A DNA stretch of 64,000 nt from Rhodoferax sp. (GTDB lineage Bacteria > Pseudomonadota > Gammaproteobacteria > Burkholderiales > Burkholderiaceae_C): the NCBI RefSeq assembly GCF_013791765.1, contig NZ_VMTC01000112.1, one strand, 5' to 3'. The notes under the pieces were generated by a model that had not been told where the DNA came from, searched no databases, and saw only the letters and a program-made list of their open reading frames with translations. Shown here piece after piece: positions 2,058-64,000 of this stretch (positions are counted from its first letter, which is position 1; every line of letters starts with the position of its first letter). A program made the translations under genes and the position numbers.

Positions 2058-2078
2058 GGTGAAACCCTTGGTAAAGAC

Positions 2079-2609
2079 TTAAGCGCTAATGCTGAGAAAT
2101 TCTGGAAGTTGAGACAAAGACTGCAAGTTGATTTCCTGCCAGTGCGCGCCGCTGAGATCGGTGTACCGGGTACCAAAAAACACCGGAGAACCTTCAGGTG
2201 GCAATTGAGCCTCGGAAAAAGCGTCGCGTTTGCGAAGTCCGGACAGACTGTCCACCATCAAAGCACAGTTGAGTTCCAGCGCTGAGTTAAAAGTAATCAC
2301 ACTGTGCTCGGCGAGTGATTGTTCTGTTCTCGGTCGCGAGGATTTGTTGCTCAGGAAGGCAGCCAGATCAACAACGCCGAAAAGGCCGCCACGCAAATTG
2401 ACAACACCCATGAACCAGGGCTGACAGTAGGGCACCAGTTGGACGTTGAGTAGCGGAAAAATCTCGCCGGATTGCGCCAGTGGAAAAAGATAGTTTGACT
2501 CGCCTGCCTTGACGGCCAGCCAGGCAACCGACACGCCACCAGAGCGAGCCGCCTGCAATCGGCTGGCGAGGCGGGTCTGGAGTTCTCGAAGTGCTTCGCG
2601 ATTAGCCAT
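2079..2609 (-). CDS. pilI: CheW-like coupling protein (PilI-like), 176 aa
   Basis: ORF track 2079..2609(-). CheW-domain-like sequence (YLFPLAQSGEIFPL...VVNLRGGLFGVVDL). Its position between the CheY-like genes and the MCP matches the canonical pilGHIJ order. Confidence 0.8.
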   Translation of the reverse strand: MANREALRELQTRLASRLQAARSGGVSVAWLAVKAGESNYLFPLAQSGEIFPLLNVQLVPYCQPWFMGVVNLRGGLFGVVDLAAFLSNKSSRPRTEQSLAEHSVITFNSALELNCALMVDSLSGLRKRDAFSEAQLPPEGSPVFFGTRYTDLSGAHWQEINLQSLSQLPEFLSISA

Positions 2610-2624
2610 GCGATCCTGAGGATT

Positions 2625-2990
2625 TCAGCCCAGCGCCTTGATCTTGACCATCAATTCGGCGGCATCAACCGGCTTGGTGATGTAGTCGCGTGCGCCTTGA
2701 CGCATGCCCCATACCCGGTCTGTTTCCAGGCTTTTGCTGGTGCACATGATGATCGGGATGTCCGAATACTCGGGCGTACGGTTAATTGAGCGCGTCAGCT
2801 GAAATCCATTTTGACCGGGCATCACGACGTCCATAAGGATTAGATCTGGCTTTTCTTCTGCGAGACGGCGCAAGGCTTCATCAGCGCCTTCTGCCGTGCG
2901 AACTGACATACCGTTTTTTTGCAGCAAATTGGTCATGAACATCAACTCGGTTTTGGAGTCGTCCACGATCAGTACTTTATGAATAGCCAT
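2625..2990 (-). CDS. pilH: Single-domain CheY-like response regulator (PilH-like), 121 aa
   Basis: Receiver signature KVLIVDDS...DLILMDVVMPGQNGF...MCTSK...ITKP. Its ATG overlaps the pilG stop by 1 nt (TAATG). Confidence 0.85.
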   Translation of the reverse strand: MAIHKVLIVDDSKTELMFMTNLLQKNGMSVRTAEGADEALRRLAEEKPDLILMDVVMPGQNGFQLTRSINRTPEYSDIPIIMCTSKSLETDRVWGMRQGARDYITKPVDAAELMVKIKALG

Positions 2991-3388
2991 TAGTTAACTC
3001 CTTGGGTGACTTTGCCGAACTGCTGTACAGCTTGCAACAATTGGTCTTTGGTAAATGGTTTTGTCAGATAATCCTGAGCCCCGACCATGCGCCCACGCGC
3101 TTTGTCAAAGACGCCATCTTTGGACGACAGCATGACAATGGGAACATCTGAATACTTGGCATTGCGTTTGATGATCGCACAGGTCTGGTACCCATCCAAT
3201 CGGGGCATCAGGATGTCGCAAAAAATGAGATGGGGCTGGTAGTCATTGACCTTTGCCAAAGCATCAAACCCGTCTTCCGCGAGCATGACTTCGTGCCCAC
3301 CCTGCTTCAGAAAAATTTCAGCGCTACGCCGGATGGTGTTGCTGTCGTCAATCACCAGAACTTTGAAGGTCGATCCAGTCGTATTCAC
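2990..3388 (-). CDS. pilG: Single-domain CheY-like response regulator (PilG-like), 132 aa
   Basis: Receiver signature KVLVIDDSNT...HLIFCDILMPRLDGY...MLSSKDG...LTKPF. First gene of the pilGHIJ block. Confidence 0.85.
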   Translation of the reverse strand: MNTTGSTFKVLVIDDSNTIRRSAEIFLKQGGHEVMLAEDGFDALAKVNDYQPHLIFCDILMPRLDGYQTCAIIKRNAKYSDVPIVMLSSKDGVFDKARGRMVGAQDYLTKPFTKDQLLQAVQQFGKVTQGVN

Positions 3389-3449
3389 AAAACAATGCTC
3401 CTGAATTGGTGATTAATTTCCGCGATAGTACACATTTCAATCATGGCGC

Positions 3450-3623
3450 CTAAATTTGCACCATTTCGAAATCCTCCTTGCGGGCCCCACAGTCTGGACA
3501 AGTCCAGTTCACAGGCACTTCACTCCATGCCGTTCCCGGCGCCACGCCGTGTTCGGGATCCCCGGTCTCTTCGTCATAGATCCACCCACAAATCAGACAC
3601 ATCCACGTGTTGGTCAATTTCAC
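3450..3623 (-). CDS. Rubredoxin (about 50-57 aa, below the 60-aa ORF-track cutoff)
   Basis: My own reverse-strand translation gives (V)KLTNTWMCLICGWIYDEETGDPEHGVAPGTAWSEVPVNWTCPDCGARKEDFEMVQI*, with the two rubredoxin CxxCG knuckles. Stop is at 3450-3452. The start is either GTG 3623 or ATG 3602. Confidence 0.8.
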   Translation of the reverse strand: MKLTNTWMCLICGWIYDEETGDPEHGVAPGTAWSEVPVNWTCPDCGARKEDFEMVQI

Positions 3624-3849
3624 AGCCTAAAGAGCCTTCGAATAGAATGCAGACACAAAAAAGGGGCCATTCGCGAGCTCCGCTGAACGCCAGACAGTGT
3701 TCCATTTTGCCTGAAGAAATTTCTTAAATCGCGTACATCACCCCCCATGCTTTCCCTAGTAGCCAAACACTTGACTGGGTCTTTGCTAAAGCGCTGACGG
3801 CGCGGCGGGTTGCCTCATTTGTTTATCTCCACTCTGAGACTCTTTCCCC

Positions 3850-5172
3850 ATGACACCTCATACCGATAACAACCAAGTCCTGTTCGAACGCGCCAAGCGC
3901 GTGATTCCTGGGGGTGTCAATTCGCCTGTCAGGGCCTTCAAAGCGGTGGGCGGCACGCCACGCTTTGTCAAACGTGCCCAAGGCGCCTATTTCTGGGATG
4001 CCAACGACCAGCGCTACACCGACTTCATTGGGTCCTGGGGACCCATGATTCTGGGGCACGGCCACCCGGCAGTCGTGCACGCAGTGCAGGCTGCCGTGCT
4101 TGAAGGCTTTTCTTACGGCGCGCCAACTGAGCGCGAAGTGGAACTGGCCGAAGAGATCTTGCGCCTGGTTCCGTCCATGGACATGGTGCGCCTCGTCAGT
4201 TCAGGGACCGAGGCCGCCATGAGCGCGATCCGCCTGGCCCGCGGCGCCACGGGGCGCAGCAAGTTCATCAAATTTGAGGGCTGCTACCACGGGCACGCGG
4301 ACGCACTTTTGGTCAAGGCGGGCTCAGGCCTGGCCACTTTCGGCAACCCCACCAGCGCTGGCGTGCCGCCTGAGGTGGTGCAACACACTGTGGTGCTGGA
4401 ATACAACAACATAGAACAGCTTGAGGCAGCCTTTGCCGTTCAAGGCGATGAAATTGCCTGTCTGATGATGGAGCCGATTTGCGGCAATATGAATTTTGTG
4501 CGGGCGAGCGTGCCGTTTGTGAAGCGCTGCCGCGAGCTCTGCACCCAGTACGGCGCGCTGCTGGTGTTTGACGAGGTTATGACCGGATTTCGCGTCGCGC
4601 TGGGCGGCGCACAAAGCGTCTATGCCAAAGAAATCCCCGGTTTTGAGCCGGACATGACTGTGTTGGGCAAGGTGATCGGAGGCGGCATGCCATTGGCCGC
4701 TTTTGGCGCCAAGCGCGCGGTCATGGAGCATCTGGCGCCTTTGGGCTCCGTCTATCAGGCTGGCACACTGTCAGGTAACCCCGTGGCGACCGCCTGCGGC
4801 CTGGCCACCCTGAGCGAAATCAGCAAGCCCGGGTTTTATGAAAAACTTTCGCGCACCACGCGTTCACTCACTGATGGCTTGAAAGCAGCCGCAGTCGCCG
4901 AAGGCGTGGCTTTTAGCGCCGATAGCGAAGGCGGCATGTTTGGTTTCTTTCTGCTGGACACCTTGCCGCAGAATTATGTCCAGGTCATGAAGTCAGACAG
5001 CGCGCGCTTTAACCAGCTTTTTCACGGACTACTTGATCGCGGTGTGTACATCGCACCAGCACTGTACGAGGCTGGATTTGTCAGCGCAGCCCACACCGAC
5101 GACGACATCGCTGCCACTGTGGCAGCAGCGCGCGCGGTATTCAGTGCTGTGCGTTTACATCATGCCCGCTAA
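3850..5172 (+). CDS. hemL: Glutamate-1-semialdehyde 2,1-aminomutase, 440 aa
   Basis: Full-length ORF. Typical HemL N-terminus [25 protein letters not shown] and class-III aminotransferase body ([10 protein letters not shown]...GKVIGGGMP). Confidence 0.95.
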
Positions 5173-53424: not shown

Positions 53425-53562
53425 CAAGCTTCTATACACCTTTTTTCATTTTTTGTCTTTGATGGCACTCCTGGGCAATAGCAGGTATTATTCACAATTG
53501 CGACAATTTGTATCTTTTCGCGGTGAAAAAATAATGTTGTTGAGCAATTGAGGGGTAAAGAC

Positions 53563-56500
53563 ATGAAGGCAGTAAAAAGAACCGTGGCTTCGCGAATTCG
53601 TGATGCGTTGCGTCGTGATGCGTTTCGGATTGAGCCTTTGGAGCCGCGTGTCTTGCTTTCGGCAGACCCTATCTTTGCGCCAATGATGGCAGTGCTGGCG
53701 CCAGATCGCACTGATATCCAAAGTATCACCGAAGCCTACGCTGCAGCGCAAGCCTCAAGTAGCCCGTCCATCTCCGTGCCGTTGATGGCCCGCCTGCTCT
53801 CCAGTCCTGCCGCCAATAGCTCGGCACAGACATTTGCAGTGGATGCGGTCTTGTTTGACTTGGGGCAAATGTCTTTGCAAGCGGGTTTTTTGGATACGTC
53901 TTTGCGCGTTGCTGCCAATGAGGTGTTGGGTGGTAGCGGTTCGTTTAACGTTGATTTATTTAATACTGGATTGGTCAGTCCCGGATACTCCCCCGGCGTG
54001 CAAGACGTTGCTAGTTTCACCCAAGATGCCAGTGGAACGCTGCTGATTGAGCTTGGTGGAAGCACGGCGGGCACTGGCGACGGCCATTACGATCAAATTA
54101 ACATCAGTGGCGCCGCTGTTTTGGGCGGGACTTTGAATGTGGCGTTGTATGGCGGGTACAAGCCGCAAGATGGAGAAACGTTCACCGTCATGAACTACGG
54201 TTCTGTTACCGGTAAGTTTGACGTGGGTTCTGGCTTGCTTAAGACAGGCGATGGCTTGTTCTTTGAGGTCACTCAGGGTGCGACCAGTCTGGTCTTAACT
54301 GCGCACACCATAGATCCGTCACTTGGCTATGTGCTGGACGTGCTGGACGGTGAGCCGTCTGACCAGATCGGGCAGTGGCTCAACTTCAACTATTTTCAGG
54401 ATATTGCCCCGGTTGCCTTCGCCGGTAGTCTCAATCTGGGTGGCAATCTTACGGCCCAAGGCCAATTCACCCTGGCCTATAACGCCGATGAGAGTTTCAC
54501 GCCAATCGGCGGCAGCGCACTGAACACGAATGTCTGGAGCCTGAGCGCAAGCAATGTTGATGCATTTTTGGGAGTTTCCGGTCAAGGCCTGGCACTCGGT
54601 GGTCTGGACCTAAATCTGGCTTTTGTGCAGGTTGACACTGCGGGTTATGGCTGGGTCTTGGGCCAGGGACTCATCGACACGGCAACTGTCAGTGGCTTGA
54701 CCGGGGTGAGCCTGCAAGGGACCAACCTTGCGCTAGACATCAACTGGGGCTATGGCAATTTGCCAAGCGGCGGCGCTAACAGTTCGTTGCTGGACCTGAG
54801 CTTGAGCCCTATTACAGTGGGCAGCGCCACCTTCAATTCGAACGGCGCGACCGGCCCCTACTTGTTGGCCTCCGGCACACTGGCGGGCTCGGTAGCTGAT
54901 GTCACCCTAAACGCCACGGTGGGGGTGTCGGTGCTGGGCGACTCCTTTGTCATGGCAGGCAAAAACGTCACTGCTAGCCTGGCTGCGGGCGGTGTTGCGG
55001 TGGGTGTCAGCAATGGCGCTTTTGGCTTTTTGGCCGACAGTTCCGGTATGGCGTTTGAAGCAACCGGTGCTTTGGCTTTGACAGGTGGCGGGTTTGCCAG
55101 CGTCAGTGCCGATGCCGTCAGAGTGGTCATCAACCGCACAGGTACCTTGCAGACCGGGCGCGTGCTCAGCTTTGCCGGCGACTACAGCTACACCTTCGCA
55201 GACGTAGTCGCCTCCAGTGGCTTGCAGGCTGTTGGAGTTGTCGGTTTGCAGGCATCACTGGGCGCGGGCTTGAACGTCAGCGGCAATTTTTCGTTTGAAA
55301 AGGACGGCAGCACCAACACCATGCGCGTGGTCGCCCAGGGCGCATCAGCCCAGGTGGCGGCAGGCAGTTTCAAGGTTGGTGTACAGCATGCCAATTTAGG
55401 GCTGACCATCTCCGCAGCGGGTCGCGTACTGGAAGCCAGCGGCGCTATTAGTGCCAATTTGGGCGAAGAAATGACGCTTTCCGCCAGCCAGGTGACGCTG
55501 CGTTTGAACGAAACCACCGATGACGCAAGCGGCGCTGTCATTTCAGCTGCAGGCCAGAGCTACACTTTTAGCAGCGCGATGCAGGCAGGCATGCATGAGT
55601 TGTCCATCGTCGGCGGAGAGCTGTCGTTGGCCGGTTTTGTTCAGGCATCTGGTTCGCTGGCGGTACGCTGGGCGGGGCAGCCTGCTAGCCTTAGTCTGGC
55701 TGACGGTACCACACGCTCGGTCAACCAAATTTGGGTTGCTGGCACTGGCTTGGCGGCCGCTGTTGGCCTGAATGCCGGCAAGCCCGAATTTGTGGGTTTC
55801 AGCGCGACGGGGCTTGAGTTCGTGCTCGGCCTGTTTTCAGACACTGCCAACACTGCAAATCAATGGACCAGCCTGTCAGGCACCATGGGTGGTTCAAAGC
55901 TTTCCGGATTGACCGGCGTTACCCTGGCCGCCAATGCGCTGGCCTTGACCTACAACTCCGCTTCCAGTGGCCAACGCGTGGCGGATTTCACGGGTAGCAA
56001 TGCCAAGGGCATCACCTTAGCCGGCAAGACCTTGAATTTGTCTGCCGATGGCAGCAAAGGTGAACTGTTGCAGGCCAGTGGACAACTCAATCTTGATTTA
56101 CTCGGATTTGTTCAAGTCAGCGGTGATTTTGCGTTGGAGAGCAAGACGCAGGCTGTGACACTGGCCGACGGCAGTGATGTGACCACGCAAATGCTGACCA
56201 TTGGCGCTAAGGGTGTGGCCGCTTTCGTTGGTCTGAATGGTGGTCAAACGGAAGAAATGGGCTTGCGTGTCAGCGATGCTGAGTTTGGTTTTGTTGTCGC
56301 TAGCGACCAAGCAGACCCCGCGCGTCGTTGGGTCAGCCTGCAGGCGGTGGCTACTGCTGCCAGCATGCAGGGTGTCAGCGGTCTGAAGATGACTGCCTCG
56401 GATCTGCTCGTCAGTGTGAATCGGGCGGCTACCGATGGCTCGGTCATTGACTACCAGGCTGCGCCTTTGGGTGTGGTTACGGATAGTGGCGGGACCGAGT

Positions 56501-59500
56501 TGCTCCTGGACATGGACGGCAGCAAGGGCGCACTTACTCAGGTGCAAGTGGGCCGCGCCACGTTGGCCGTGTCTGACTATATTTATGTTAGTGGTGGCTT
56601 CTACATGGAAATGGCTGACACCATTGCGGTAGATGTAGCAACCGGTTTACCAGCCACTTACCCTGCCGGCATGAATGCGGCTTTGCAGACCGGTTTGGGC
56701 AAGGTGGACGGCTTGTCGGCTGACCACAGCCGGATTGAAGATTTGCAGGTTAAACCACTGACGCTGAGCTTTACCGATGTGGATGTGTTTGCGGGCATCG
56801 GGCCCTACTTCGTTGATGCCAACGGCAATGGACTCATGGATGTCGGCGAAGTCGTCAACCCGGACCGCATGGGCATCACGCTGGACAACATTGATCTGGC
56901 CCTGGTTCTGATGGACTCGACCCTGCTGGCCGACCCTGACTCCGTCATACCCAAGTTTTACGCCCTGCAGCTGGACTGGAAAACGCCCTTGGATGTGGAT
57001 TGGGACTACTTCAAGTTCCAGATTGATGACTTGCAAGTGCAGGCCAACCAAGGTGGCCAATGGAAAGGTGCGCCCACGCTTTCCACGCCGTACATCGACT
57101 TCGCGAGCAGCTTTGGTGCTACCGGCTATGAGATACCGACTTCGGGCGACTCCGTTTTTCTCAACTACGACAAGTCTTTTGTTGGCGTCTCGATTGGCCA
57201 CGCATTACTCAATGTGGGTAACTTCTTCCAGGTTGAGGGCAGCTTTGCTCTGGAGAAGGTCGGTGGCCAGAAGGTCGACGTGGTCACTGGATTGCCCAGC
57301 AACCTCACCGGCAGTCCGGCCGCGAGCTTGGCCTCCGAACTGACAGCACTCAAACAAAAGGGTTACCTGTCTGCGAATAATGCATTGCTAAGCGACTTGC
57401 CGGTGGACATGCTCACCATTGGCGCATCGGACGTGACCATCACCATTGGCAATCCCGGCGACCCGCTGCTCGTGCTTGACAATATTGATGTGGCCTTCAG
57501 CACCATGAAGGCCACCGCAGATGCCGACCCGAGCCGAATCATTCCGCGTTTGTATGGCGCCAAGGCTTTCTGGGCCACACCGCTGGATGTGGACTGGGGT
57601 TTCATGCAACTCAAGGTTGACGACCTTCAAGTGCAAATGAACAAGGGTGCCAATTGGCAAGGCACTCAGTTATCGCCTTACCTTGACTATCAGTCGAGCT
57701 TTGGCCCGAGCGGCCTTAACGTAGCCACGGGTGGCGCCCCGATTTCCCTGGACTTCAACCGCTCCATGTTTGGCGTGTCGGTGGGCCATGCCCTGGTCAA
57801 GATTGATGACTTTTTTCACCTGGAAGGTGGCTTTGCCATTGAGAAGTCCAGCAGCGTTCAGGTCGACATTGCCACCGGTTTCAATAGCCGCCTGGAAGGC
57901 GGAACTGCGCTCAATTCGTTGGTCGGCAAGGGGCTTTCCGTAGACGGTACCCGAATTGACGATCTGACGATGAATGCCGTTACGCTGGGCTTTTCCAATG
58001 TCAAGCTATTTGCTGGGTCTGGTCCCTATTTTGTCGATAGCAATGATGACGGTGTCAGTGATAGCACCAGCTCGGATGCCGTCGGATTGGTGGTAGAGAA
58101 CCTCGACCTCGGCCTTGTAATTTACACCGCAGCCGATGCCTCGGTCACCTTACCCAAGCTTTGGGCGCTCAAAGCAACAGCGGATCAAGCGGCCTTTGTT
58201 GGCGTTGACTTTCTGACGCTCAGCGCCGAAGGTGTCACCGTGGTTGCGAATCAGGGAGCGCTCTGGAGTGGGAGTACGGTCAAGCCCTACGTGGATTTTG
58301 CGAGTACTTACGGGGCTGATGGCCTGTCGATTTCCACCGGCGGTGACCCCATGGCCCTGGCCTACCAGAGTGGCTACTTTGGTGTGCAAGTGGCCAAGGC
58401 GACTTTGCGGATCGATGAATTTGTCTATGTCCAGGGCGCCTTCAGTTTCGAAAAAGGCCAGCGCCAGCGCGTCACGGTCGATACCGGCATCACCGTGACT
58501 GATATTGGTATGGCGGCCACCATCGCCAGTCTGTCCACTTCCGCGGGTCAAGGGGCTGTGGTGTCGGCCGATTGGTCCACTGTGTCCAATCTGGAAGTCG
58601 AGGCCATGACCTTTGGCATGAATAATGTCAACGTTTTTGTTGGCTATGGCGTGCCTGATTTTGACTCAGTCAAACCGGTTAAAGACCAGGCTGGCGTGTT
58701 CGGAGTGGCCATCAAAGACGTGGATTTGGCCTTGGCCATTCTCACCCCTACCGCCAAATCACTCAACTTGCCAAAATTTACTGCACTCAAAGCGACCGCC
58801 AGTGAATTCGTGGTGGCCGGCGGTGAAGGTATTTTTGAGTTGTCTGGCAATGACATTGCAGTGAACCTGAACTGGGGTTCAGCCTGGCAAGCCGCCCCGG
58901 CCAAGCGTGCCACCGTCGATTTTGTGGAAAGCTTTGGTGCGGGTGGTTTGCTCGTGCCTACGGGTGCAACCCCGATGGCTTTGAATTTCACCGAGACACT
59001 GATAGAAGCCAAGGTATCGAGCGCCTTGTTGGCCATTTCGGAATTTGTTCACGTATCGGGCGACTTTTCGTTCCGCAAGAGCGGCACCACCGAGACCACT
59101 GTCAAGCAGGGGCTTAACAGTATTGCGGGCGTCAAGGTCAACGCCATTGACATCGGCGCCAACAATGTTCACGCGTTTGTCGGTTTGAATGGCCCCACCA
59201 GTGATGTCAACCTTGACGGTGTCATCAATACCGACGACTTGACCGACCAAGCCATTGGCCTCAAAGTAAACGACTTCGACTTTGGCCTGTCGATATTGGT
59301 CGCCCAGGCAGACATCACCAAGCCCACCATAGCCCAGGGCACAAAATTTACGGCACTCAAAGCCCACGCCAATGACATCGCCTTTGTGGGCTTCGGTGAC
59401 TTTATCGAATTTGATCTTAACGACGTCAGCGTCGCTATCAACCAGGGTAGCGTTGCTGGCATGGTGGCTGACTTCACCCAGGGCGGCTCGGTGGCGGGTC

Positions 59501-62500
59501 GCACCGTTCAAACCGGCGGTGTTCCGATTCTGCTGGACTTCAATTCTGAACTGATTGAGGCTTCGGTCGGACTGGCGACCGCCAATGTCGCTGGTATTGT
59601 GAGTTTGCAAGGCGGCTTTGCGTTCCAGAAACGCACGCTTGACCGTATCGGGTTTAACCTGGCAGGTATGGAGGTGATCGCACCGGCGGACGCACTCGTG
59701 GTTGCCGGCATGGATGTGCAGGCATTCGCTGGCTTCAACGGCCCATACAAGACGCTCAGCAAAGACCCCGCTACCGGCGCGTTGATTGCCAGCGAACCCA
59801 ATACCGATGCAGTGGGCTTCGCCATCGACAACCTCGATTTTGTTTTGGCCATGCTGACACCGTCCAAGGCCTCAGGTTTTGCGGTCCCCGGTGTAAATTT
59901 CTACAGCCTGTATGCCAGCGCCGACAAGGCCGGCCTGGTCGGCACTGACCCCTACCTGACGCTTGAGGGTACTGATGTCGTGCTCAAGCTCAATGGCGCG
60001 GTGGCTGGTGATTACCCCATTCCAAGCTTATACGTGGACTACACCGAGCTGCCCGGTGGCAAGCTGACCGTGCCGGTGGGCACGGCAGGTAACAATATCA
60101 GCCTGGACTACAACTCCAACCTGTTAGGCCTGCAGATCAATGCCAAGCTGGGCATTTTTGATTTGTTTGATATCAGCTACGACTTCAGTTTCGACTTTGA
60201 GATGCCCAGCATCAACCTGGGCAACCTGGGCTTGCCCAGCGTTACGCTGCCCAATTTTGATTTGCTGGACTTCAAGCTGCCGTCCTTGCAGTTGATGGAG
60301 TTTGAGCTGCCGTCCCTGCTCGACCTGCGCTTTGAAATTCCCAACTTCACTCTACCGACACTGCCGGGTGTGGACTGGGTTGCTCTGCTGGAGTTGCCCG
60401 GTTTCGATGTCAACTTGCCCACTTTCACCCTGCCGGCCTGGAGCAAGCTGGTCTTGAACTGGCCCAAGCTCGCCCTGGATTTCCCGTCAGTGGATTTCCC
60501 TGCGTTGCCCGATTTCCCGTCCTTGAACTTGTTTGGTTTGCCAAACATCGACTTGAGCCTGCCAGACTTCAGCCTTGGCATACCCAAGTTTGACATTGGC
60601 AGTCTGCGGGCGCTTTACGCAGCCTGGCCCGATTTGAGTCTGCAGTTTCCTGACATCGCTTTCCCGGCGCTGCCGGCGTTTCCGGACTTGTCGTTCGGAT
60701 TGGGCTTTGGCATGCCCGTGTTTGATTTGCCAAACCTGAATTTGCCTGATTTGCGCGCACTCTACGCGGCTTGGGCAAATATTCAAGTCAACTTCCCGGA
60801 TTTCAACTTGCCCGCCCTGCCGGCATTCCCTGATTTCGACATCTTTAATTTGCCGTCTCTCAACTGGGATGCGCCAAGAATTGATTTGTCGGCCTTGAGC
60901 AATCTGGTGCTGAACTGGCCTGACTTCAAACTCCAGTTTCCCGATATTGTTTTCCCAGAGCTGAGCCTGCCAGATTTCGGTCTGAGCATGCCAAGCTTCG
61001 ATTTGCCCACCGGCTTCATGCCGACCATCAGTCTGAAGGGCTTGACCGACCTTCTGCCGGAAATGCCCGATGTGGGCTTCCTCAAAGACGCGTTCAACTT
61101 CATCAGCAATCTCGACTTGTCCATCGGCTTTGACATCAACCTGGGCGTGATCGTTCTGGGCAAGATATCGTTACCCGACGTCAACCTGAGTTTGGGAGAT
61201 TTTGTACACCTCAGCGGTGACTTTGAGCTCAACCTGGGCAAGACCTTTAACGGCACCATGTACACCGGTCTGCCCGCTGACCTGAGCGTCCTGGAGTCCG
61301 CGCTGGGTAGCACTGCCGACACCATCATTGATGGCATCAAGAGCCTGGGTGGTATTTCTGCGGATTATTCACGCGTCAGCAATGTTGATTTCAAGGGCCT
61401 CACGCTGGGCGGCTCTGATATTTACGCCTTCATTGGCGCGGGCACACCTGATTTCACCCGGCCATTGTCAGAGCAAGCCGGTCTGACCGGTTTTGGTCTT
61501 GAAAATCTCGACCTGGGCCTTGGCATCTTTAAAGCCGATCTGCCGGACTTTTTCAAGGCGCAGAATTTTTATTCGCTGACGGCACATGCCGATCAACTTG
61601 GCACCTACGGCTTTGGCGACATCCTCAAACTCACCGCGCAAGACATCACGCTGCAAGTGAACGCAGGCGGGGAGTTGTTTGGTGGTGTCATGCGCTCACG
61701 CGCTGACTTCAAGACAACATTCCCCGCCGTGGTAGATACGGCGACGCCGACCAACAGTAAGCCGGTCGGTTACAAAATTGCCACGGGTGGCACGCCGGTT
61801 TACCTCGATTTTGGCGGCGAAGACATCATTGGACTGGACATTGGCATGGCCGAGATCCAGGTGTCCGAGTTCTTGAGCTTGCGCGGCTCGCTCGCTTTCC
61901 GCCAGGGAGAGCGTTTCACCGTGGACGTCAACCCAGGCGGGCTCTCCACGCTGCTGTCTGAACTGGGCACTGGCCCAACCATTCCCATGCAGGTTGAGGC
62001 GATGACTCTGGGCGGCGCCAACCTGACCGGTTTCGCCGGCGTGGGCGGCCCCTATCGCTATGGTGTAGACGCAAATGGCGACGGTCTGTTGGACAGCATC
62101 AATGACGGCGCGATCGGTTTGGCGATTGATGATGTGGACTTCGGTCTGGCCATCATGACGCCGACCTTGCTGACGGCCAGCCCCTCGCTCAAGGCCAATG
62201 CGCCGAAGTTCATTTCGGTCAAAGCCAGCGTGGGCGATGCGTTCCTCACCGGCATTGATGCGAGCTTGCTCGACGTCCAGGCGCATGACGTTGAGGTCAA
62301 TATCAACACCTTTGTCGTGCCCGGTGGCCCCATCCCCAATGCCGCCTTGCAGCTGATCGGCCCACCGTCGATCAACTACCAAACCAGTACCAGCTTCAAG
62401 AATTCGCCAGAAGATAAAAATGGCAACGGCGTTCTGGACGCAGGTGAAGACCGCAATGGCGACAACCACCTCGCTGCCTATGGCTTTGCAGTTCCGGCGG

Positions 62501-64000
62501 GCGGCAATAACGCGGTCATCATTGATTTCAATGAAGAAATCATACAGGCCAAGGTGGGTTACGCCCAAATTAACTTGGCCGGCTTTGTGCAGTTATCTGC
62601 CTCGATGGCATTCACCAAAAAAGGCTCGGAAACCGTCACGCTTTCCAATGGTGAAGTGACAGAAGTCAGCACATTGGCGATTGGCATCAATGATGCCTAC
62701 GGGTTTGTAGGTGTCGGCGCCTACTGGCGTGACACCAGTGCGGTAGGCACGCCAGGGTATGGCCGCATCGAAGAAACGGACACACCCGACACCAGTGCCG
62801 TTGGCCTGGCCATTGAAAACCTCGACTTGGGCGTCGTGGTGGCGCGCGAGCTCAAGATTGGCTTAGGCGGACTGACCGTTGGCGTCTATCTGGCCGCTCA
62901 AGCCAATATTGACACCATTGGATTGGTCGGCATCGACGACGTCACACTGCAGGCCACAGGTCTGCAGTTGGACCTCAATACCGGTGCGCGCACCGTGATT
63001 TCTTCGGGTTACGTCAAAGACGCGGCTACTGGCGCAGTCTCTTTTGACAATGCCAGCGCCACCTTTGCGCTCACCACCATCGACTTTTCCAAAAGCAACT
63101 GGAAAGACATGTCACTGGCCGTCAATCAAGACAGCGACCAGACCAATGATGTCGTGAACGCCGGTTATGCGATTCCTACCGGAAATCCGTCTGAGCCGAT
63201 CGTTCTTGACTATTCGGAGCAACTGCTTCGCATCTTTGGTCAAGCCAAACTCGACATGTTTGGCTTGGTCAAAATGGACGGTGTGCTGGACTTCCAGTTC
63301 AGCCAGAGTGAGGGATTGACGGTGTTTGCGGACGTCTCAGCCCGCATCGGCGCTGGTTCTTTTGCTATTGAAAGAGATGCGACTGGGCTGCTTGTCATCG
63401 GCAAGCGCAATGGCACGGTGGGTGCCGCGATGCGACTCGAACTCGATGGTGGCTTTGATCTGGGTAGTCTGGCCAGTTTGGACGTGAAGTTTGACCTGAC
63501 GCTCAACACCTTCGGTGAAACGATTGTTTACGACATCCCCGATGCCTTCAAAGCCGCGTTAGATACCGACACCAATTTGGCAACTGCACCTGCTCAGTTC
63601 CCCAACTGGCAGTACACCATCAGCGCCACGCCAACTGGAAAACCCAGTTGGACGGGCATGTATGTCCAGTTGTTGGGCCAAGGCAAACTTGACATGCTGG
63701 ACGGGGCTCTCAAGCTCAATGGAAATTTCGGAATCATCGTATCCGAAACCGGTATGGAACTAGGGGTCACTGCGACTCTGGATTTGCCCTTGCTCAATCC
63801 TTTGGATGTCACTGGCACCCTGGGCATTGTGCAGGCCGGCATCTACGGCAGTCTGCAAGTTGGTTCGCCAGGGCAAAAGCTGTTGGACATTGCCGGTGCA
63901 TTCTCGATTGAAGCCAGCGTCCTGCTGCAAATCAACACCACCAGTAGCGCTCAGTCGGTCAAGACACTCAAGCTTGATGCCAATAAGGCCATCCTGCGCG
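53563..64000 (+). CDS. Giant repetitive LEPR-x-LL-motif protein (putative secreted or surface protein), 5' part only: >3,479 codons, open to the window end
   Basis: GAGGGG lies 7 nt upstream of ATG 53563. I read the frame codon by codon from 53563 to about 60200 without meeting a stop. Beyond that I read it less rigorously, and no stop-terminated ORF in this frame appears in the track. The N-terminus is MKAVKRTVASRIRDALRRDAFRIEPLEPRVLLSADP. The body is Gly/Ala/Thr/Asp-rich repeated modules. Confidence 0.85.
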   Translation, partial: MKAVKRTVASRIRDALRRDAFRIEPLEPRVLLSADPIFAPMMAVLAPDRTDIQSITEAYAAAQASSSPSISVPLMARLLSSPAANSSAQTFAVDAVLFDLGQMSLQAGFLDTSLRVAANEVLGGSGSFNVDLFNTGLVSPGYSPGVQDVASFTQDASGTLLIELGGSTAGTGDGHYDQINISGAAVLGGTLNVALYGGYKPQDGETFTVMNYGSVTGKFDVGSGLLKTGDGLFFEVTQGATSLVLTAHTIDPSLGYVLDVLDGEPSDQIGQWLNFNYFQDIAPVAFAGSLNLGGNLTAQGQFTLAYNADESFTPIGGSALNTNVWSLSASNVDAFLGVSGQGLALGGLDLNLAFVQVDTAGYGWVLGQGLIDTATVSGLTGVSLQGTNLALDINWGYGNLPSGGANSSLLDLSLSPITVGSATFNSNGATGPYLLASGTLAGSVADVTLNATVGVSVLGDSFVMAGKNVTASLAAGGVAVGVSNGAFGFLADSSGMAFEATGALALTGGGFASVSADAVRVVINRTGTLQTGRVLSFAGDYSYTFADVVASSGLQAVGVVGLQASLGAGLNVSGNFSFEKDGSTNTMRVVAQGASAQVAAGSFKVGVQHANLGLTISAAGRVLEASGAISANLGEEMTLSASQVTLRLNETTDDASGAVISAAGQSYTFSSAMQAGMHELSIVGGELSLAGFVQASGSLAVRWAGQPASLSLADGTTRSVNQIWVAGTGLAAAVGLNAGKPEFVGFSATGLEFVLGLFSDTANTANQWTSLSGTMGGSKLSGLTGVTLAANALALTYNSASSGQRVADFTGSNAKGITLAGKTLNLSADGSKGELLQASGQLNLDLLGFVQVSGDFALESKTQAVTLADGSDVTTQMLTIGAKGVAAFVGLNGGQTEEMGLRVSDAEFGFVVASDQADPARRWVSLQAVATAASMQGVSGLKMTASDLLVSVNRAATDGSVIDYQAAPLGVVTDSGGTELLLDMDGSKGALTQVQVGRATLAVSDYIYVSGGFYMEMADTIAVDVATGLPATYPAGMNAALQTGLGKVDGLSADHSRIEDLQVKPLTLSFTDVDVFAGIGPYFVDANGNGLMDVGEVVNPDRMGITLDNIDLALVLMDSTLLADPDSVIPKFYALQLDWKTPLDVDWDYFKFQIDDLQVQANQGGQWKGAPTLSTPYIDFASSFGATGYEIPTSGDSVFLNYDKSFVGVSIGHALLNVGNFFQVEGSFALEKVGGQKVDVVTGLPSNLTGSPAASLASELTALKQKGYLSANNALLSDLPVDMLTIGASDVTITIGNPGDPLLVLDNIDVAFSTMKATADADPSRIIPRLYGAKAFWATPLDVDWGFMQLKVDDLQVQMNKGANWQGTQLSPYLDYQSSFGPSGLNVATGGAPISLDFNRSMFGVSVGHALVKIDDFFHLEGGFAIEKSSSVQVDIATGFNSRLEGGTALNSLVGKGLSVDGTRIDDLTMNAVTLGFSNVKLFAGSGPYFVDSNDDGVSDSTSSDAVGLVVENLDLGLVIYTAADASVTLPKLWALKATADQAAFVGVDFLTLSAEGVTVVANQGALWSGSTVKPYVDFASTYGADGLSISTGGDPMALAYQSGYFGVQVAKATLRIDEFVYVQGAFSFEKGQRQRVTVDTGITVTDIGMAATIASLSTSAGQGAVVSADWSTVSNLEVEAMTFGMNNVNVFVGYGVPDFDSVKPVKDQAGVFGVAIKDVDLALAILTPTAKSLNLPKFTALKATASEFVVAGGEGIFELSGNDIAVNLNWGSAWQAAPAKRATVDFVESFGAGGLLVPTGATPMALNFTETLIEAKVSSALLAISEFVHVSGDFSFRKSGTTETTVKQGLNSIAGVKVNAIDIGANNVHAFVGLNGPTSDVNLDGVINTDDLTDQAIGLKVNDFDFGLSILVAQADITKPTIAQGTKFTALKAHANDIAFVGFGDFIEFDLNDVSVAINQGSVAGMVADFTQGGSVAGRTVQTGGVPILLDFNSELIEASVGLATANVAGIVSLQGGFAFQKRTLDRIGFNLAGMEVIAPADALVVAGMDVQAFAGFNGPYKTLSKDPATGALIASEPNTDAVGFAIDNLDFVLAMLTPSKASGFAVPGVNFYSLYASADKAGLVGTDPYLTLEGTDVVLKLNGAVAGDYPIPSLYVDYTELPGGKLTVPVGTAGNNISLDYNSNLLGLQINAKLGIFDLFDISYDFSFDFEMPSINLGNLGLPSVTLPNFDLLDFKLPSLQLMEFELPSLLDLRFEIPNFTLPTLPGVDWVALLELPGFDVNLPTFTLPAWSKLVLNWPKLALDFPSVDFPALPDFPSLNLFGLPNIDLSLPDFSLGIPKFDIGSLRALYAAWPDLSLQFPDIAFPALPAFPDLSFGLGFGMPVFDLPNLNLPDLRALYAAWANIQVNFPDFNLPALPAFPDFDIFNLPSLNWDAPRIDLSALSNLVLNWPDFKLQFPDIVFPELSLPDFGLSMPSFDLPTGFMPTISLKGLTDLLPEMPDVGFLKDAFNFISNLDLSIGFDINLGVIVLGKISLPDVNLSLGDFVHLSGDFELNLGKTFNGTMYTGLPADLSVLESALGSTADTIIDGIKSLGGISADYSRVSNVDFKGLTLGGSDIYAFIGAGTPDFTRPLSEQAGLTGFGLENLDLGLGIFKADLPDFFKAQNFYSLTAHADQLGTYGFGDILKLTAQDITLQVNAGGELFGGVMRSRADFKTTFPAVVDTATPTNSKPVGYKIATGGTPVYLDFGGEDIIGLDIGMAEIQVSEFLSLRGSLAFRQGERFTVDVNPGGLSTLLSELGTGPTIPMQVEAMTLGGANLTGFAGVGGPYRYGVDANGDGLLDSINDGAIGLAIDDVDFGLAIMTPTLLTASPSLKANAPKFISVKASVGDAFLTGIDASLLDVQAHDVEVNINTFVVPGGPIPNAALQLIGPPSINYQTSTSFKNSPEDKNGNGVLDAGEDRNGDNHLAAYGFAVPAGGNNAVIIDFNEEIIQAKVGYAQINLAGFVQLSASMAFTKKGSETVTLSNGEVTEVSTLAIGINDAYGFVGVGAYWRDTSAVGTPGYGRIEETDTPDTSAVGLAIENLDLGVVVARELKIGLGGLTVGVYLAAQANIDTIGLVGIDDVTLQATGLQLDLNTGARTVISSGYVKDAATGAVSFDNASATFALTTIDFSKSNWKDMSLAVNQDSDQTNDVVNAGYAIPTGNPSEPIVLDYSEQLLRIFGQAKLDMFGLVKMDGVLDFQFSQSEGLTVFADVSARIGAGSFAIERDATGLLVIGKRNGTVGAAMRLELDGGFDLGSLASLDVKFDLTLNTFGETIVYDIPDAFKAALDTDTNLATAPAQFPNWQYTISATPTGKPSWTGMYVQLLGQGKLDMLDGALKLNGNFGIIVSETGMELGVTATLDLPLLNPLDVTGTLGIVQAGIYGSLQVGSPGQKLLDIAGAFSIEASVLLQINTTSSAQSVKTLKLDANKAILR

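What the first reader, a model, noticed from the sequence alone, without database searches (positions are those of the whole stretch)
60200..61030. About 277-aa block of LPxF-type repeats with a roughly 5-residue period inserted in one module of the giant protein
The translation reads MPSINLGNLGLPSVTLPNFDLLDFKLPSLQLMEFELPSLLDLRFEIPNFTLPTLPG...FPSVDFPALPDFPSLNLFGLPNIDLSLPDFSLGIPKFD...LQFPDIAFPALPAFPDLSFGLGFGMPVFDLPNLNLPDL...NFPDFNLPALPAFPDFDIFNLPSLN...LQFPDIVFPELSLPDFGLSMPSFDLP. Nine consecutive units are in perfect 5-residue phase: LPSVT LPNFD LLDFK LPSLQ LMEFE LPSLL DLRFE IPNFT LPTLP. This gives hydrophobic residues at i-2 and i, as in pentapeptide-repeat beta-helices, but with Pro at i+1 and bulky Phe/Leu where the canonical repeats have Ala/Ser. 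Later units drift between periods of 5 and 6. There is also a higher-order duplication of about 45 aa (RALYAAWPDLSLQFPDIAFPALPAFPD vs RALYAAWANIQVNFPDFNLPALPAFPD). I know of no described repeat family with this consensus.
Basis: partly seen in the sequence, partly recalled or inferred. Interest (0 to 1): 0.65.

Follow-up and report, generated by a model that had tools for sequence, protein, structure and literature searches.

The report
Proline-punctuated hydrophobic repeat arm in giant protein
One module of a giant secreted-type bacterial protein carries a conserved 275-residue insert of short Leu/Phe strands, each ended by a proline; no family database describes it, its fold is still unknown, and its pattern is shared with AHNAK and with the proline-rich hairpin inserts of apolipoprotein B-100.

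Summary
The correct frame starts at 60202, not 60200. Residues 2226-2500 of a >3,479-aa LEPR-XLL protein (nt 60202-61026) are 20% Leu, 14.5% Pro and 11% Phe.

**Repeat structure**
- The local rule is (Phi-x)n-Phi-Pro-x with n = 0-2, which gives Pro-Pro spacings of 3, 5 and 7.
- The 5-residue period is significant (z about 5-6).
- These short units sit inside roughly 49-aa higher-order units. There are four clear ones and about seven by profile self-alignment.
- The block lies between two copies of the last strand of one ~200-aa module.

**It is not drifting low complexity**
- 37 of 38 prolines and 97% of hydrophobic positions are conserved in two Rhodoferax orthologues.
- dN/dS is about 0.07-0.10, similar to the flanks.
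- Contigs from strains at 90-100% nucleotide identity show only one 2-aa indel.
- Among distant homologues the insert changes by whole units (122, 239, about 361 and 422 aa).

**Family membership and fold**
- Pentapeptide-repeat and LRR membership tests fail.
- Both AlphaFold2 runs were uninformative (pLDDT about 30, flanks included), so the fold is unresolved.
- The same sequence pattern occurs in AHNAK repeats, in the proline-rich amphipathic beta-hairpin inserts of apoB-100 (the only PDB hit), and in unannotated LPDLx arrays of other LEPR-XLL and phage proteins.

Most likely this is an ordered amphipathic beta/PPII arm whose length can change by whole units. Interest is moderate to low.

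The parts
53563..63999 (+). Giant ORF (>3,479 aa, runs off the window's 3' end). It is acidic (pI 4.2), has no Cys, and is built of ~200-aa beta-type modules. This is the host protein of the block.
   Evidence: Open frame; composition; module alignment; orthologous ORFs of >4,721 and >7,561 aa in Rhodoferax MAG contigs.
53623..53685 (+). N-terminal LEPR-XLL motif (FRIEPLEPRVLLSADPIFAPM).
   Evidence: NCBIfam NF012209, 32.1 bits against a cutoff of 17, E 5.5e-8; coordinates checked.
59617..60147 (+). Body of the host module (aa 2031-2207), carrying the module anchor DNLDFVLAML.
   Evidence: Alignment of nine modules.
60148..60201 (+). Last strand of the module, LGIFDLFDISYDFSFDFE. This is the N-terminal border of the insert and the conserved anchor G[IV]FDLF.
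60202..60420 (+). N part of the block (aa 2226-2298). It is a pentad/decad run, LPSxx-LxxFx, with nine pentads in phase.
   Evidence: Lag 10 z=5.7, lags 15 and 25 z=4.0, lag 5 z=3.1; sequence; dN/dS 0.04-0.11.
60421..60600 (+). Higher-order unit U1 (60 aa): ...AWSKLVLNWPKLALDFPSVDFPALPDFP...
   Evidence: Unit alignment, 29-59% pairwise identity; W-anchored motif; hhalign self-matches.
60601..60747 (+). Higher-order unit U2 (49 aa): SLRALYAAWPDLSLQFPDIAFPALPAFPD...
   Evidence: A short helix is predicted at LRALYAAW in both AF2 runs, at low confidence.
60748..60891 (+). Higher-order unit U3 (48 aa): DLRALYAAWANIQVNFPDFNLPALPAFPD...
60892..61038 (+). Higher-order unit U4 (49 aa): ALSNLVLNWPDFKLQFPDIVFPELSLPDF...
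61039..61161 (+). C part of the insert (GLTDLLPEMPDVGFLKDAFNFISNLDLSIGFDINLGVIVLG). It is the most conserved segment, is present in every homologue including the short-insert ones, and looks like a diverged unit.
   Evidence: dN/dS 0.01-0.03; present in P0124, P0125 and L006; lies inside the hhalign self-match range.
61162..61242 (+). Return strand KISLPDVNLSLGDFVHLSGDFELNLGK. It is a second copy of the module's last-strand motif and forms the C-terminal border of the insert.
   Evidence: Module alignment; anchor GDF[KE]L[NT]LG.

Best explanation
**What it is (shown).** The block is a lineage-specific insert between strands, an 'arm', in one beta-module of a giant, acidic, Cys-free LEPR-XLL protein. 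The organism is a Rhodoferax-like groundwater betaproteobacterium. The arm is built from very short amphipathic strands, (Phi-x)n-Phi, each ended by Pro-x (n = 0, 1 or 2, giving units of 3, 5 or 7 residues). These are organised into roughly 49-aa higher-order units, each opening with a short amphipathic segment (L-R-A-L-Y-A-A-W). The arm grew by duplication of whole units from a short form of about 35-40 aa that still exists in distant homologues.

**How it most likely works (inferred).** It is an ordered structure, not a disordered one. The Leu/Phe side chains form one buried face, and the Asp/Asn/Ser/Thr positions are exposed and free to vary. The proline-x pairs make the kinks or turns between strands. 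The result would be a stack of proline-rich amphipathic beta-hairpins and PPII segments, as modelled for AHNAK repeats and seen in apoB-100 inserts 6 and 8. Functionally it would be a projecting arm whose length changes by whole units. Its hydrophobic face packs either on itself or on a hydrophobic partner such as lipid, membrane or a substrate surface.

**Status of each step.** Shown: the anatomy, the conservation pattern, the unit-wise length change and the failed family tests. Inferred: the fold and the function.
For: **Anatomy**
- Residue context around Pro is Phi-x-Phi-P-x-Phi-x-Phi, and Pro-Pro spacings are 3, 5 and 7.
- Periodicity statistics support the local period and the higher-order units.
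- Four units share 29-59% identity.
- hhalign self-matches reach 98-99.8% probability over insert positions 13-351.
- The insert lies between duplicated last-strand motifs.

**Constraint**
- 37 of 38 Pro are invariant and 113 of 116 hydrophobic positions stay hydrophobic, while polar x positions are only about 51% identical against about 70% in the flanks.
- dN/dS is 0.07-0.10 against 0.06-0.07 in the flanks.
- DNA copies are only 60-77% alike, so the duplications are old.
- Contigs are identical in runs X1 and X2 and carry only substitutions plus one 6-nt indel at 90-96% identity.

**Unit-wise growth**
- Anchor-to-anchor lengths are 122, 239, 359-364 and 422 aa among homologues.

**Against disorder**
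- GRAVY is +0.41 and about 42% of residues are hydrophobic (LFIVMWY).

**Analogues**
- A shuffled block scores 0 bits or less against every analogue, so the likeness is in residue order, not composition.
- AHNAK-like proteins dominate the exhaustive search. Their repeat is described as a 7-residue motif with a central proline and alternating hydrophobic/hydrophilic residues, modelled as a beta-strand rod (PMC2196192).
- The only PDB match is apoB-100 (E 3.4e-4, stretches 2589-2739, 3130-3313 and 3731-3882). The second stretch overlaps insert 6, which is marked by Cys3194-Cys3324. [quoted passage not shown]
Against: - There is no structural evidence. AF2 gave pLDDT 32 (single sequence) and 29.5 (7-sequence alignment), with the conserved flanking strands equally low.
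- The matches to apoB-100 and AHNAK are sums of weak per-stretch scores (best apoB stretch i-E 0.23). They are best read as a convergent sequence pattern, not homology.
- dS is saturated (>1.5), so the dN/dS values are rough.
- The predicted helices come from low-confidence models.
- Nothing tested here bears directly on function, and the neighbouring genes are housekeeping and give no clue.
Confidence: 0.45

Rival explanations
1. The block is a pentapeptide-repeat-type right-handed quadrilateral beta-helix, as the first reader leaned towards. Four Phi-x-Phi-P-x pentads would make one square coil, with the i and i-2 side chains pointing inward.
For: - Nine pentads are in perfect phase, and multiples of 5 dominate the N part.
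- The hydrophobic pattern at i-2 and i fits the register.
- P0037, a true Pfam Pentapeptide protein (PF00805, 4e-44) with VDLPN repeats, aligns to block residues 1-78.
- Pro at i+1 fits the phi of about -60 of the type II turn (PMC2964730).
Against: - No strict consensus pentad is present. The i-2 residue is small in 5 of 39 cases and bulky in 26 of 39. The i+2 residue is Gly/Arg in 3 of 39.
- PF00805 and PF13599 do not hit even at E<=1.
- Bulky i-2 substitutions abolish Qnr function.
- Beyond the first 73 aa the spacing is mixed (3, 5, 7), with a helix-like segment about every 49 aa.
Confidence: 0.1
2. The four ~49-aa units are a degenerate LRR-like solenoid with about 22-24 residues per turn, two turns per unit, in which the Asn ladder has been replaced by Pro.
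For: - Bacteroidota-type LRR proteins (IPNFNLPNLQxLxLxxNQLSGS) align to the block unit by unit at 18-30 bits per stretch. One of them, P0126, carries several Pfam LRR families.
- Lag-22 self-similarity has z=4.3 in the unit part.
- The hydrophobic positions 1, 4, 6, 9, 12 and 19 of that LRR are kept in the aligned block segments (read).
Against: - The defining LxxLxLxx[N/C]xL motif has no match.
- No Pfam LRR model hits at E<=1.
- The shared part is largely the two Phi-P-x-Phi-x pentads that these particular LRRs happen to contain.
- The N part has no 22-residue period.
Confidence: 0.15
3. The block is an intrinsically disordered, low-complexity Pro/Leu/Phe-rich linker that expands and contracts by slippage and has no defined fold.
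For: - AF2 pLDDT is about 30.
- Composition is biased.
- Length differs among distant homologues.
- There is one 6-nt slippage-type indel inside a 9-nt tandem repeat at 60213-60231.
Against: - AF2 is equally unconfident on the conserved module strands, so it does not discriminate.
- 97% of Pro and hydrophobic positions are conserved while dS is saturated.
- The composition is very hydrophobic (GRAVY +0.41).
- DNA repeats are old, at 60-77% identity.
- There is no unit-scale length change at 80-100% identity.
Confidence: 0.1
4. The block is specifically a lipid- or membrane-binding amphipathic beta-sheet of the apoB-100 kind. Its Leu/Phe face would lie on a membrane, vesicle or hydrophobic substrate and so anchor the giant protein or let it adhere.
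For: - ApoB-100 is the only PDB match, in its proline-rich amphipathic beta-hairpin inserts on the lipid surface.
- There is strict Phi/polar alternation with one very hydrophobic face.
- The block occurs once in a protein of more than 7,500 aa, as a dedicated contact site might.
Against: - The match is weak and pattern-driven.
- The authors suggest that inserts 6 and 8 may form compact structures detached from the particle surface.
- No lipid-related genes lie beside the locus apart from an unrelated WS/DGAT gene.
- No experimental handle is available here.
Confidence: 0.15

Closest known systems
AHNAK / AHNAK2 / periaxin-like central repeats (vertebrates)
   Same: Both use proline-punctuated alternation of hydrophobic and polar residues with 5- and 7-residue spacing, nested in larger units. 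These proteins dominate the exhaustive search (P0001 E 1e-94 over 18 stretches). The likeness disappears when the block is shuffled. [quoted passage not shown]
   Different: AHNAK is eukaryotic and cytoplasmic, has an N-terminal PDZ domain, 128-aa units, Lys/Glu/Asp at the polar positions and Val/Met/Leu at the hydrophobic ones. The window block is bacterial, has ~49-aa units, Asp/Asn/Ser/Thr polar positions and Leu/Phe/Trp hydrophobic positions. Homology is not shown and convergence is likely.
Apolipoprotein B-100 proline-rich amphipathic beta-hairpin inserts (insert 6, insert 8, arm-2 sheet of insert 4; PDB 9bd1)
   Same: This is the only solved structure matched by the insert profile (E 3.4e-4). 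Both are proline-rich amphipathic hairpin regions inserted between strands of a larger beta structure, and both are modelled poorly by AF2 (pLDDT 40-50 for insert 6).
   Different: The per-stretch scores are weak (i-E 0.23 or worse). ApoB-100 is a lipid-transfer-superfamily protein on a lipoprotein particle. It has no ~49-aa unit structure, and insert 6 has a disulfide bond whereas the window protein has no Cys.
Pentapeptide repeat proteins (Pfam PF00805; Rfr/Qnr/MfpA fold)
   Same: Both have tandem 5-residue units with hydrophobic residues at i-2 and i. A true member with VDLPN repeats (P0037) aligns to the first 78 aa of the block.
   Different: The block has a bulky i-2 residue, Pro at i+1 and no Gly/Arg at i+2. 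The HMM does not hit. The pentad phase holds for only 9 units.
Regular LPD(L/F)x arrays in other LEPR-XLL giants (Verrucomicrobiota P0034 = MEM7791327.1, plus P0045, P0068, P0073) and in phage tape-measure-like proteins (PHROG 33360 region 687-752)
   Same: They share the Phi-P-x-Phi-x pentad and, in P0068 and P0073, the same ~200-aa module family as host. They are likewise unannotated in Pfam.
   Different: Those arrays are far more regular, running for 200-430 aa of near-perfect pentads. They sit in a different loop of the module, between 'ITxxVN' and 'VDFxxSF' (read). They lack the ~49-aa units. They match PHROG 33360 (P0034 3e-30), whereas the window block does not.
Bacteroidota 22-residue leucine-rich repeats (IPNFNLPNLQxLxLxxNQLSGS)
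   Same: The alignment runs unit by unit, there is a 22-residue sub-period, and the hydrophobic skeleton is shared.
   Different: The LRR signature Asn and the LxL motif are absent, and no LRR HMM hits.

Membership tests
Pentapeptide repeat proteins (PF00805/PF13599) | Tandem pentads matching [A/C/S/T/V][D/N][L/F][S/T/R][G/R], with a small residue at i-2. | tested here: not met
   No strict pentad was found. In the register that places Pro at i+1, i-2 is A/C/S/T/V in 5 of 39 cases and bulky in 26 of 39, i-1 is D/N in 13 of 39, i is L/F in 30 of 39, and i+2 is G/R in 3 of 39. The consensus is taken from PMC2964730.
Pentapeptide repeat proteins (PF00805/PF13599) | A match to the family HMM. | tested here: not met
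   No Pfam family matched at E<=1. The positive control P0037 scored 4e-44.
Pentapeptide repeat proteins (PF00805/PF13599) | [quoted passage not shown] | tested here: inconclusive
   The AF2 models have pLDDT 32 and 29.5 and cannot be used. Lag 20 in the N part has z=2.6 only.
Leucine-rich repeats | The highly conserved segment LxxLxLxx[N/C]xL in each unit of 20-30 residues. | tested here: not met
   The regular expression found no match in the block, and no Pfam LRR model hit. Only a 22-residue self-similarity (z=4.3) and pairwise alignments to LRR proteins were seen.
AHNAK family | An N-terminal PDZ domain followed by tandem ~128-aa central repeat units in a eukaryotic protein. | tested here: not met
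   The host protein begins with a LEPR-XLL motif, Pfam finds no PDZ domain, and the units are ~49 aa. Only the heptad/pentad pattern is shared.
LEPR-XLL domain-containing giant proteins (NCBIfam NF012209). This applies to the host protein, not the block. | An N-terminal LEPRxLL motif matching the HMM above its cutoff. | tested here: met
   The score is 32.1 bits against a cutoff of 17, at residues 21-41.
Apolipoprotein B / large lipid transfer proteins | An N-terminal lipovitellin-like domain followed by a continuous amphipathic beta-belt. | tested here: not met
   There are no Pfam hits of that kind. The PDB profile match is limited to three weak stretches in proline-rich regions.

The most novel reading that the evidence does not exclude
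The Phi-P-x-Phi-x motif could define an undescribed, widespread structural repeat class with its own solenoid or hairpin-stack fold, distinct from the pentapeptide-repeat and LRR folds. Its members would be this block, the long LPDLx arrays of other LEPR-XLL giants, the arrays in phage tape-measure-like proteins, and the 'LRLRFPxLxWPxLP' units of MORN-repeat, apparently eukaryotic, proteins. It would arise repeatedly as an insert in loops of beta-proteins that changes length by whole units. AHNAK and the apoB-100 inserts would then be eukaryotic counterparts of the same architecture.
Probability: 0.2. Interest if true: 0.6.

Novelty: new variant of a known kind. Interest (0 to 1): 0.35.

Why it matters
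LEPR-XLL giant proteins are essentially unstudied. Only two papers in the searched library mention the term, each once, and the ~200-aa modules have no family model. This block is a well-delimited and strongly constrained element, so it is a tractable fragment for structural work.

If the fold were solved, it would give a first structural template for proline-punctuated amphipathic repeats. That would also bear on AHNAK, whose repeat has only a 1992 model, and on the poorly resolved proline-rich inserts of apoB-100.

On present evidence it is an unannotated repeat variant inside a surface-protein-like giant. It is not a new kind of system.

Tried and rejected
- **Finding's frame.** Translating 60200-61030 as given produced stop codons. 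The frame is 60202.
- **Word-indexed homologue search with the block alone.** It found nothing, because the candidate list was swamped. Searching with the flanks or with a profile found only P0005, P0124, P0125, P0024 and P0127 as true relatives.
- **AF2, single sequence and 7-row alignment.** Both were uninformative. I did not run fold search because the models are meaningless.
- **PDB phmmer with the block.** No hit at E<=10.
- **Pfam, NCBIfam and PHROG scans on the block.** No hits.
- **Self-BLASTP of the giant protein.** It found no paralogous HSPs because the modules are too diverged, so I used motif anchors instead.
- **Global Fourier analysis.** No coherent period, because the phase drifts.
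- **Recent DNA-level tandem expansion.** Rejected, since the copies are 60-77% alike.
- **Composition-only explanation of the AHNAK, LRR and array hits.** Rejected by the shuffle control.
- **Apparent absence of the block in run X8.** This is general contig fragmentation along the whole gene, not a deletion.
- **Literature searches for a solved or AlphaFold-based AHNAK repeat structure.** Nothing usable was found.
- **Regular expression for counting helix-plus-FP units across homologues.** It was too strict and returned 0, so I compared lengths instead.
Full report
**1. Observation**

The + strand frame 53527-63999 is open for 3,491 codons and runs off the window. From Met at 53563 it encodes a protein whose residues 21-41 match the LEPR-XLL model NF012209 (32.1 bits, cutoff 17). 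It begins at nt 60202, not 60200, and the Leu/Pro/Phe-rich part ends at about nt 61026-61038.

The block is 20.4% Leu, 14.5% Pro, 10.9% Phe and 9.1% Asp, against 11%, 3.3%, 5.1% and 7.3% in the rest of the protein. It holds about 41 of the protein's 54 Phi-P-x-Phi motifs and occurs once per protein, also in orthologues of >4,721 and >7,561 aa.

**2. Periodicity**

Against 1,000-2,000 composition-preserving shuffles:
- Hydrophobic residues recur at lag 5 (z=5.9) and at lags 10 and 15 (z=3.0). They avoid lags 1, 4 and 6.
- BLOSUM self-similarity gives lag 5 z=5.3 for the whole block.
- In the first 73 aa, lag 10 has z=5.7 and lags 15 and 25 have z=4.0.
- In the remainder, lags 97/104 have z=5.5, lag 22 has z=4.3 and lag 49 has z=3.9. 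The 99th percentile of the shuffle maxima is about 4, and a flanking control region shows nothing above 3.1.

The residue context of the 40 prolines is Phi-x-Phi-P-x-Phi-x-Phi, and Pro-Pro spacings are 5 (12 times), 7 (8 times), 3 (7 times) and 10 (5 times). The rule is therefore (Phi-x)n-Phi-P-x with n = 0, 1 or 2. In fact the proline spacing alternates among 3, 5 and 7, and 6 does not occur.

**3. Higher-order units**

Four units of 48-60 aa share 29-59% identity. Their consensus is L-x-x-L-(Y/V)-x-x-W-P-x-L-x-L-Q-F-P-D-I-x-F-P-x-L-P-x-F-P-D...

A profile self-alignment of the insert from three orthologues gives off-diagonal matches at 99.8%, 98.8% and 98.4% probability. The shifts are about 50, 104 and 155 residues and cover insert positions 13-351. 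The N-terminal pentad run and the conserved C-terminal part are therefore diverged copies of the same unit, about seven in all.

At the DNA level the copies are only 60-77% identical, and Tandem Repeats Finder sees only three trivial short arrays. The duplications are old.

**4. Position in the protein**

From about aa 1050 onward the part of the protein in the window contains nine ~200-aa modules marked by the anchor D-N-[IL]-D-[LF]-x-L. The block follows the last strand of one module (LGIFDLFDISYDFSFDFE). It is closed by a second copy of that strand motif (LSLGDFVHLSGDFELNLGK). So it is an insert of about 330 aa between duplicated strands.

**5. Relatives and constraint**

Two Rhodoferax MAG contigs (L001, L002) carry the orthologous gene, with the block at 76-79% identity. 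It differs in length only by a 7-aa deletion, a 1-aa insertion and a 2-aa indel.

- In the three-way alignment, 37 of 38 Pro are invariant and 113 of 116 hydrophobic positions remain hydrophobic.
- Polar positions are only about 51% identical, against about 70% in the flanks.
- dN is 0.15-0.17 in the block and 0.10-0.16 in the flanks, with saturated dS, giving dN/dS of about 0.07-0.10 against 0.06-0.07.

The window sequence comes from groundwater metagenomes.
- Five runs from three studies hold all of its sampled 31-mers. Single contigs from two of them, X1 and X2, match it exactly across the block.
- Populations at 90-96% nucleotide identity show substitutions only, plus one in-frame 6-nt insertion inside a 9-nt tandem repeat at 60213-60231.
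- The block appeared to be missing from run X8. This is general contig fragmentation along the whole gene.

More distant homologues keep the insert at the same site but with different lengths between the two anchors:

| Homologue | Anchor-to-anchor length (aa) |
|---|---|
| P0124, P0125, L006 | 122 |
| P0005 | 239 |
| window, L001, L002, L004, L005 (= P0006) | 359-364 |
| L003 | 422 |

These differences are close to multiples of one unit. The block does change length in evolution, but by whole units and slowly.

**6. Family tests**

Pfam, NCBIfam and PHROGs give no hit for the block, and PDB sequences give none at E<=10.

Pentapeptide repeats (consensus from PMC2964730):
- No strict pentad is present.
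- i-2 is small in 5 of 39 cases and bulky in 26 of 39. i+2 is Gly/Arg in 3 of 39.
- A real member with VDLPN repeats (P0037, PF00805 4e-44) serves as positive control and aligns to block residues 1-78.
- The same paper shows that bulky i-2 substitutions (C72Y, A97Y) abolish Qnr activity.

LRR:
- Bacteroidota LRR proteins with IPNFNLPNLQxLxLxxNQLSGS units align unit by unit at 18-30 bits, which fits the lag-22 signal.
- However, the LxxLxLxx[N/C]xL signature is absent and no LRR model hits.

**7. What else looks like it**

The exhaustive search of 1.84 billion representative proteins found 123 proteins at E<=0.001.

- Most are vertebrate AHNAK, AHNAK2 or periaxin-like proteins, with a PDZ-type N-terminus and MPKF motifs. 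AHNAK's repeat is described as a seven-residue motif with a central proline and alternating hydrophobic and hydrophilic residues, modelled as a beta-strand rod with hydrophobic residues inside (PMC2196192).
- Shuffled versions of the block score 0 bits or less against all these targets, so the likeness lies in residue order, not composition.
- Other hits are LEPR-XLL proteins of Verrucomicrobiota (P0034 = MEM7791327.1; P0068 cluster), together with P0045 and P0073. They carry 200-430 aa of near-perfect LPDLx pentads. In these proteins the array lies in a different loop of the module, between 'ITxxVN' and 'VDFxxSF'. This is clearest in P0073, where a normal module can be compared directly with the array-bearing one.
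- Phage-like proteins (P0129, P0130, P0133, P0134) and these regular arrays match positions ~687-752 of PHROG 33360, a tail tape measure family.
- Two MORN-repeat, apparently eukaryotic, proteins (P0082, P0086) have 'LRLRFPxLxWPxLP' units that resemble the window's units.
- None of these arrays is covered by Pfam.

**8. The only solved-structure lead**

A profile of the insert hits apolipoprotein B-100 (9bd1 and seven other entries) at E 3.4e-4. The match comes from three weak stretches, 2589-2739, 3130-3313 and 3731-3882.

[quoted passage not shown] They are placed between strands of the beta-belt. Insert 6 is marked by Cys3194-Cys3324 and has AF2 pLDDT of about 40-50. The second stretch overlaps insert 6. 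I could not verify the boundaries of the other two from the text. I read this as an analogue of architecture, not as homology.

**9. Structure prediction**

AF2 on 460 aa as a single sequence gave mean pLDDT 32.4, and on 400 aa with a 7-row alignment gave 29.5. The conserved module strands at both ends scored just as low, so these runs say nothing about order or disorder. The only feature seen in both runs is a short helix at each L-x-x-L-x-x-x-W segment.

**10. Interpretation**

The Pro/Phi skeleton is invariant while the polar positions are free. The composition is very hydrophobic (GRAVY +0.41). Selection is strongly purifying, and length changes come in whole units. Together these point to an ordered repeat whose Leu/Phe face is buried and whose acidic/polar face is exposed.

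Each Pro-x pair shifts the hydrophobic alternation by one position, so it must be a kink or turn for the hydrophobic residues to stay on one side. That is the logic of the pentapeptide-repeat coil, of the AHNAK model and of proline-rich hairpins alike.

My preferred reading is a hairpin/PPII stack that forms a projecting arm of unit-tunable length (confidence 0.45). The rivals are:
- a true pentapeptide-repeat coil (0.10);
- an LRR-like solenoid (0.15);
- a disordered linker (0.10);
- a specific lipid- or surface-binding sheet (0.15), which is a functional refinement of the preferred reading rather than an exclusive alternative.

The host protein is acidic (pI 4.2), has no Cys, and carries Dx[DN]xDG-type loops. 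This fits a secreted or surface giant protein, but that is inference. The neighbouring genes are housekeeping.

**11. Novelty and score**

The block belongs to no described family. Its design principle is known, however, and similar but more regular arrays exist elsewhere. I rate it a new variant of a known kind, with interest 0.35.

The most novel reading not excluded is that Phi-P-x-Phi-x arrays form an undescribed, widespread fold class (probability about 0.2).

Noticed in passing
window 56674-63999 (aa ~1050-3491 of the giant ORF): The ~200-aa modules that make up most of the giant protein match no Pfam or NCBIfam model. Many carry Asp/Asn-rich loops of the Dx[DN]xDG type (for example DANGNGLMD, DSNDDGVSD, DANGDGLLD) that look like Ca2+-binding sites.
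   Followed up: partly
P0034, P0045, P0068, P0073: Other proteins, three of them from LEPR-XLL giants or sharing the window's module family, two from Verrucomicrobiota MAGs, hold 200-430 aa of near-perfect LPD(L/I/F)x pentads. These arrays are inserted in a different loop of the module (between 'ITxxVN' and 'VDFxxSF') from the one used in the window. The motif has therefore colonised at least two sites of this module family.
   Followed up: partly
P0129, P0130, P0133, P0134; PHROG 33360 positions ~687-752: Phage-like proteins carry long LPDFN/LPEFD arrays, with about 20 consecutive pentads in P0130. These arrays match a segment of a tail tape measure PHROG. Pfam has no model for them.
   Followed up: partly
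P0082, P0086: Apparently eukaryotic proteins, one of which (P0082) has MORN repeats, carry 'LRLRFPxLxWPxLPxLxLP' units that resemble the window's ~49-aa units (36-37 bits). Their origin and meaning are unknown.
   Followed up: no
window 60213-60231: A 9-nt tandem repeat (CAACCTGGG x2.1, encoding NLGNLG) is the site of the only indel seen in related populations. It is an in-frame 6-nt insertion after 60226 in run X11.
   Followed up: partly
L001 versus window aa 1300-2225: Upstream of the insert-bearing module, L001 is only about 50% identical to the window protein, while L002 is 81% identical. Downstream, both are about 81-85% identical. This suggests a different module content or order in L001.
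   Followed up: no
window 60364-60996, runs X6 and X7: A 534-nt Logan contig joins the reverse complement of 60488-60996 to 25 nt of 60364-60388. It has low depth and is identical in two runs. It is probably an assembly-graph artefact in the repeat, not a rearrangement.
   Followed up: no
window ~62950-63130 (module starting at aa 3027): The 'VN...DF' loop that hosts the regular arrays in the Verrucomicrobiota proteins carries a 17-30-aa non-repetitive insertion in the last module of the window. This loop seems tolerant of insertions.
   Followed up: no
window 59900-61400 and runs X1-X7: The window's sequence is present in groundwater metagenomes from several independent studies between 2018 and 2024. 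Two runs give contigs with no differences across the block, at depths up to about 74x. This points to a persistent and widespread groundwater population.
   Followed up: partly
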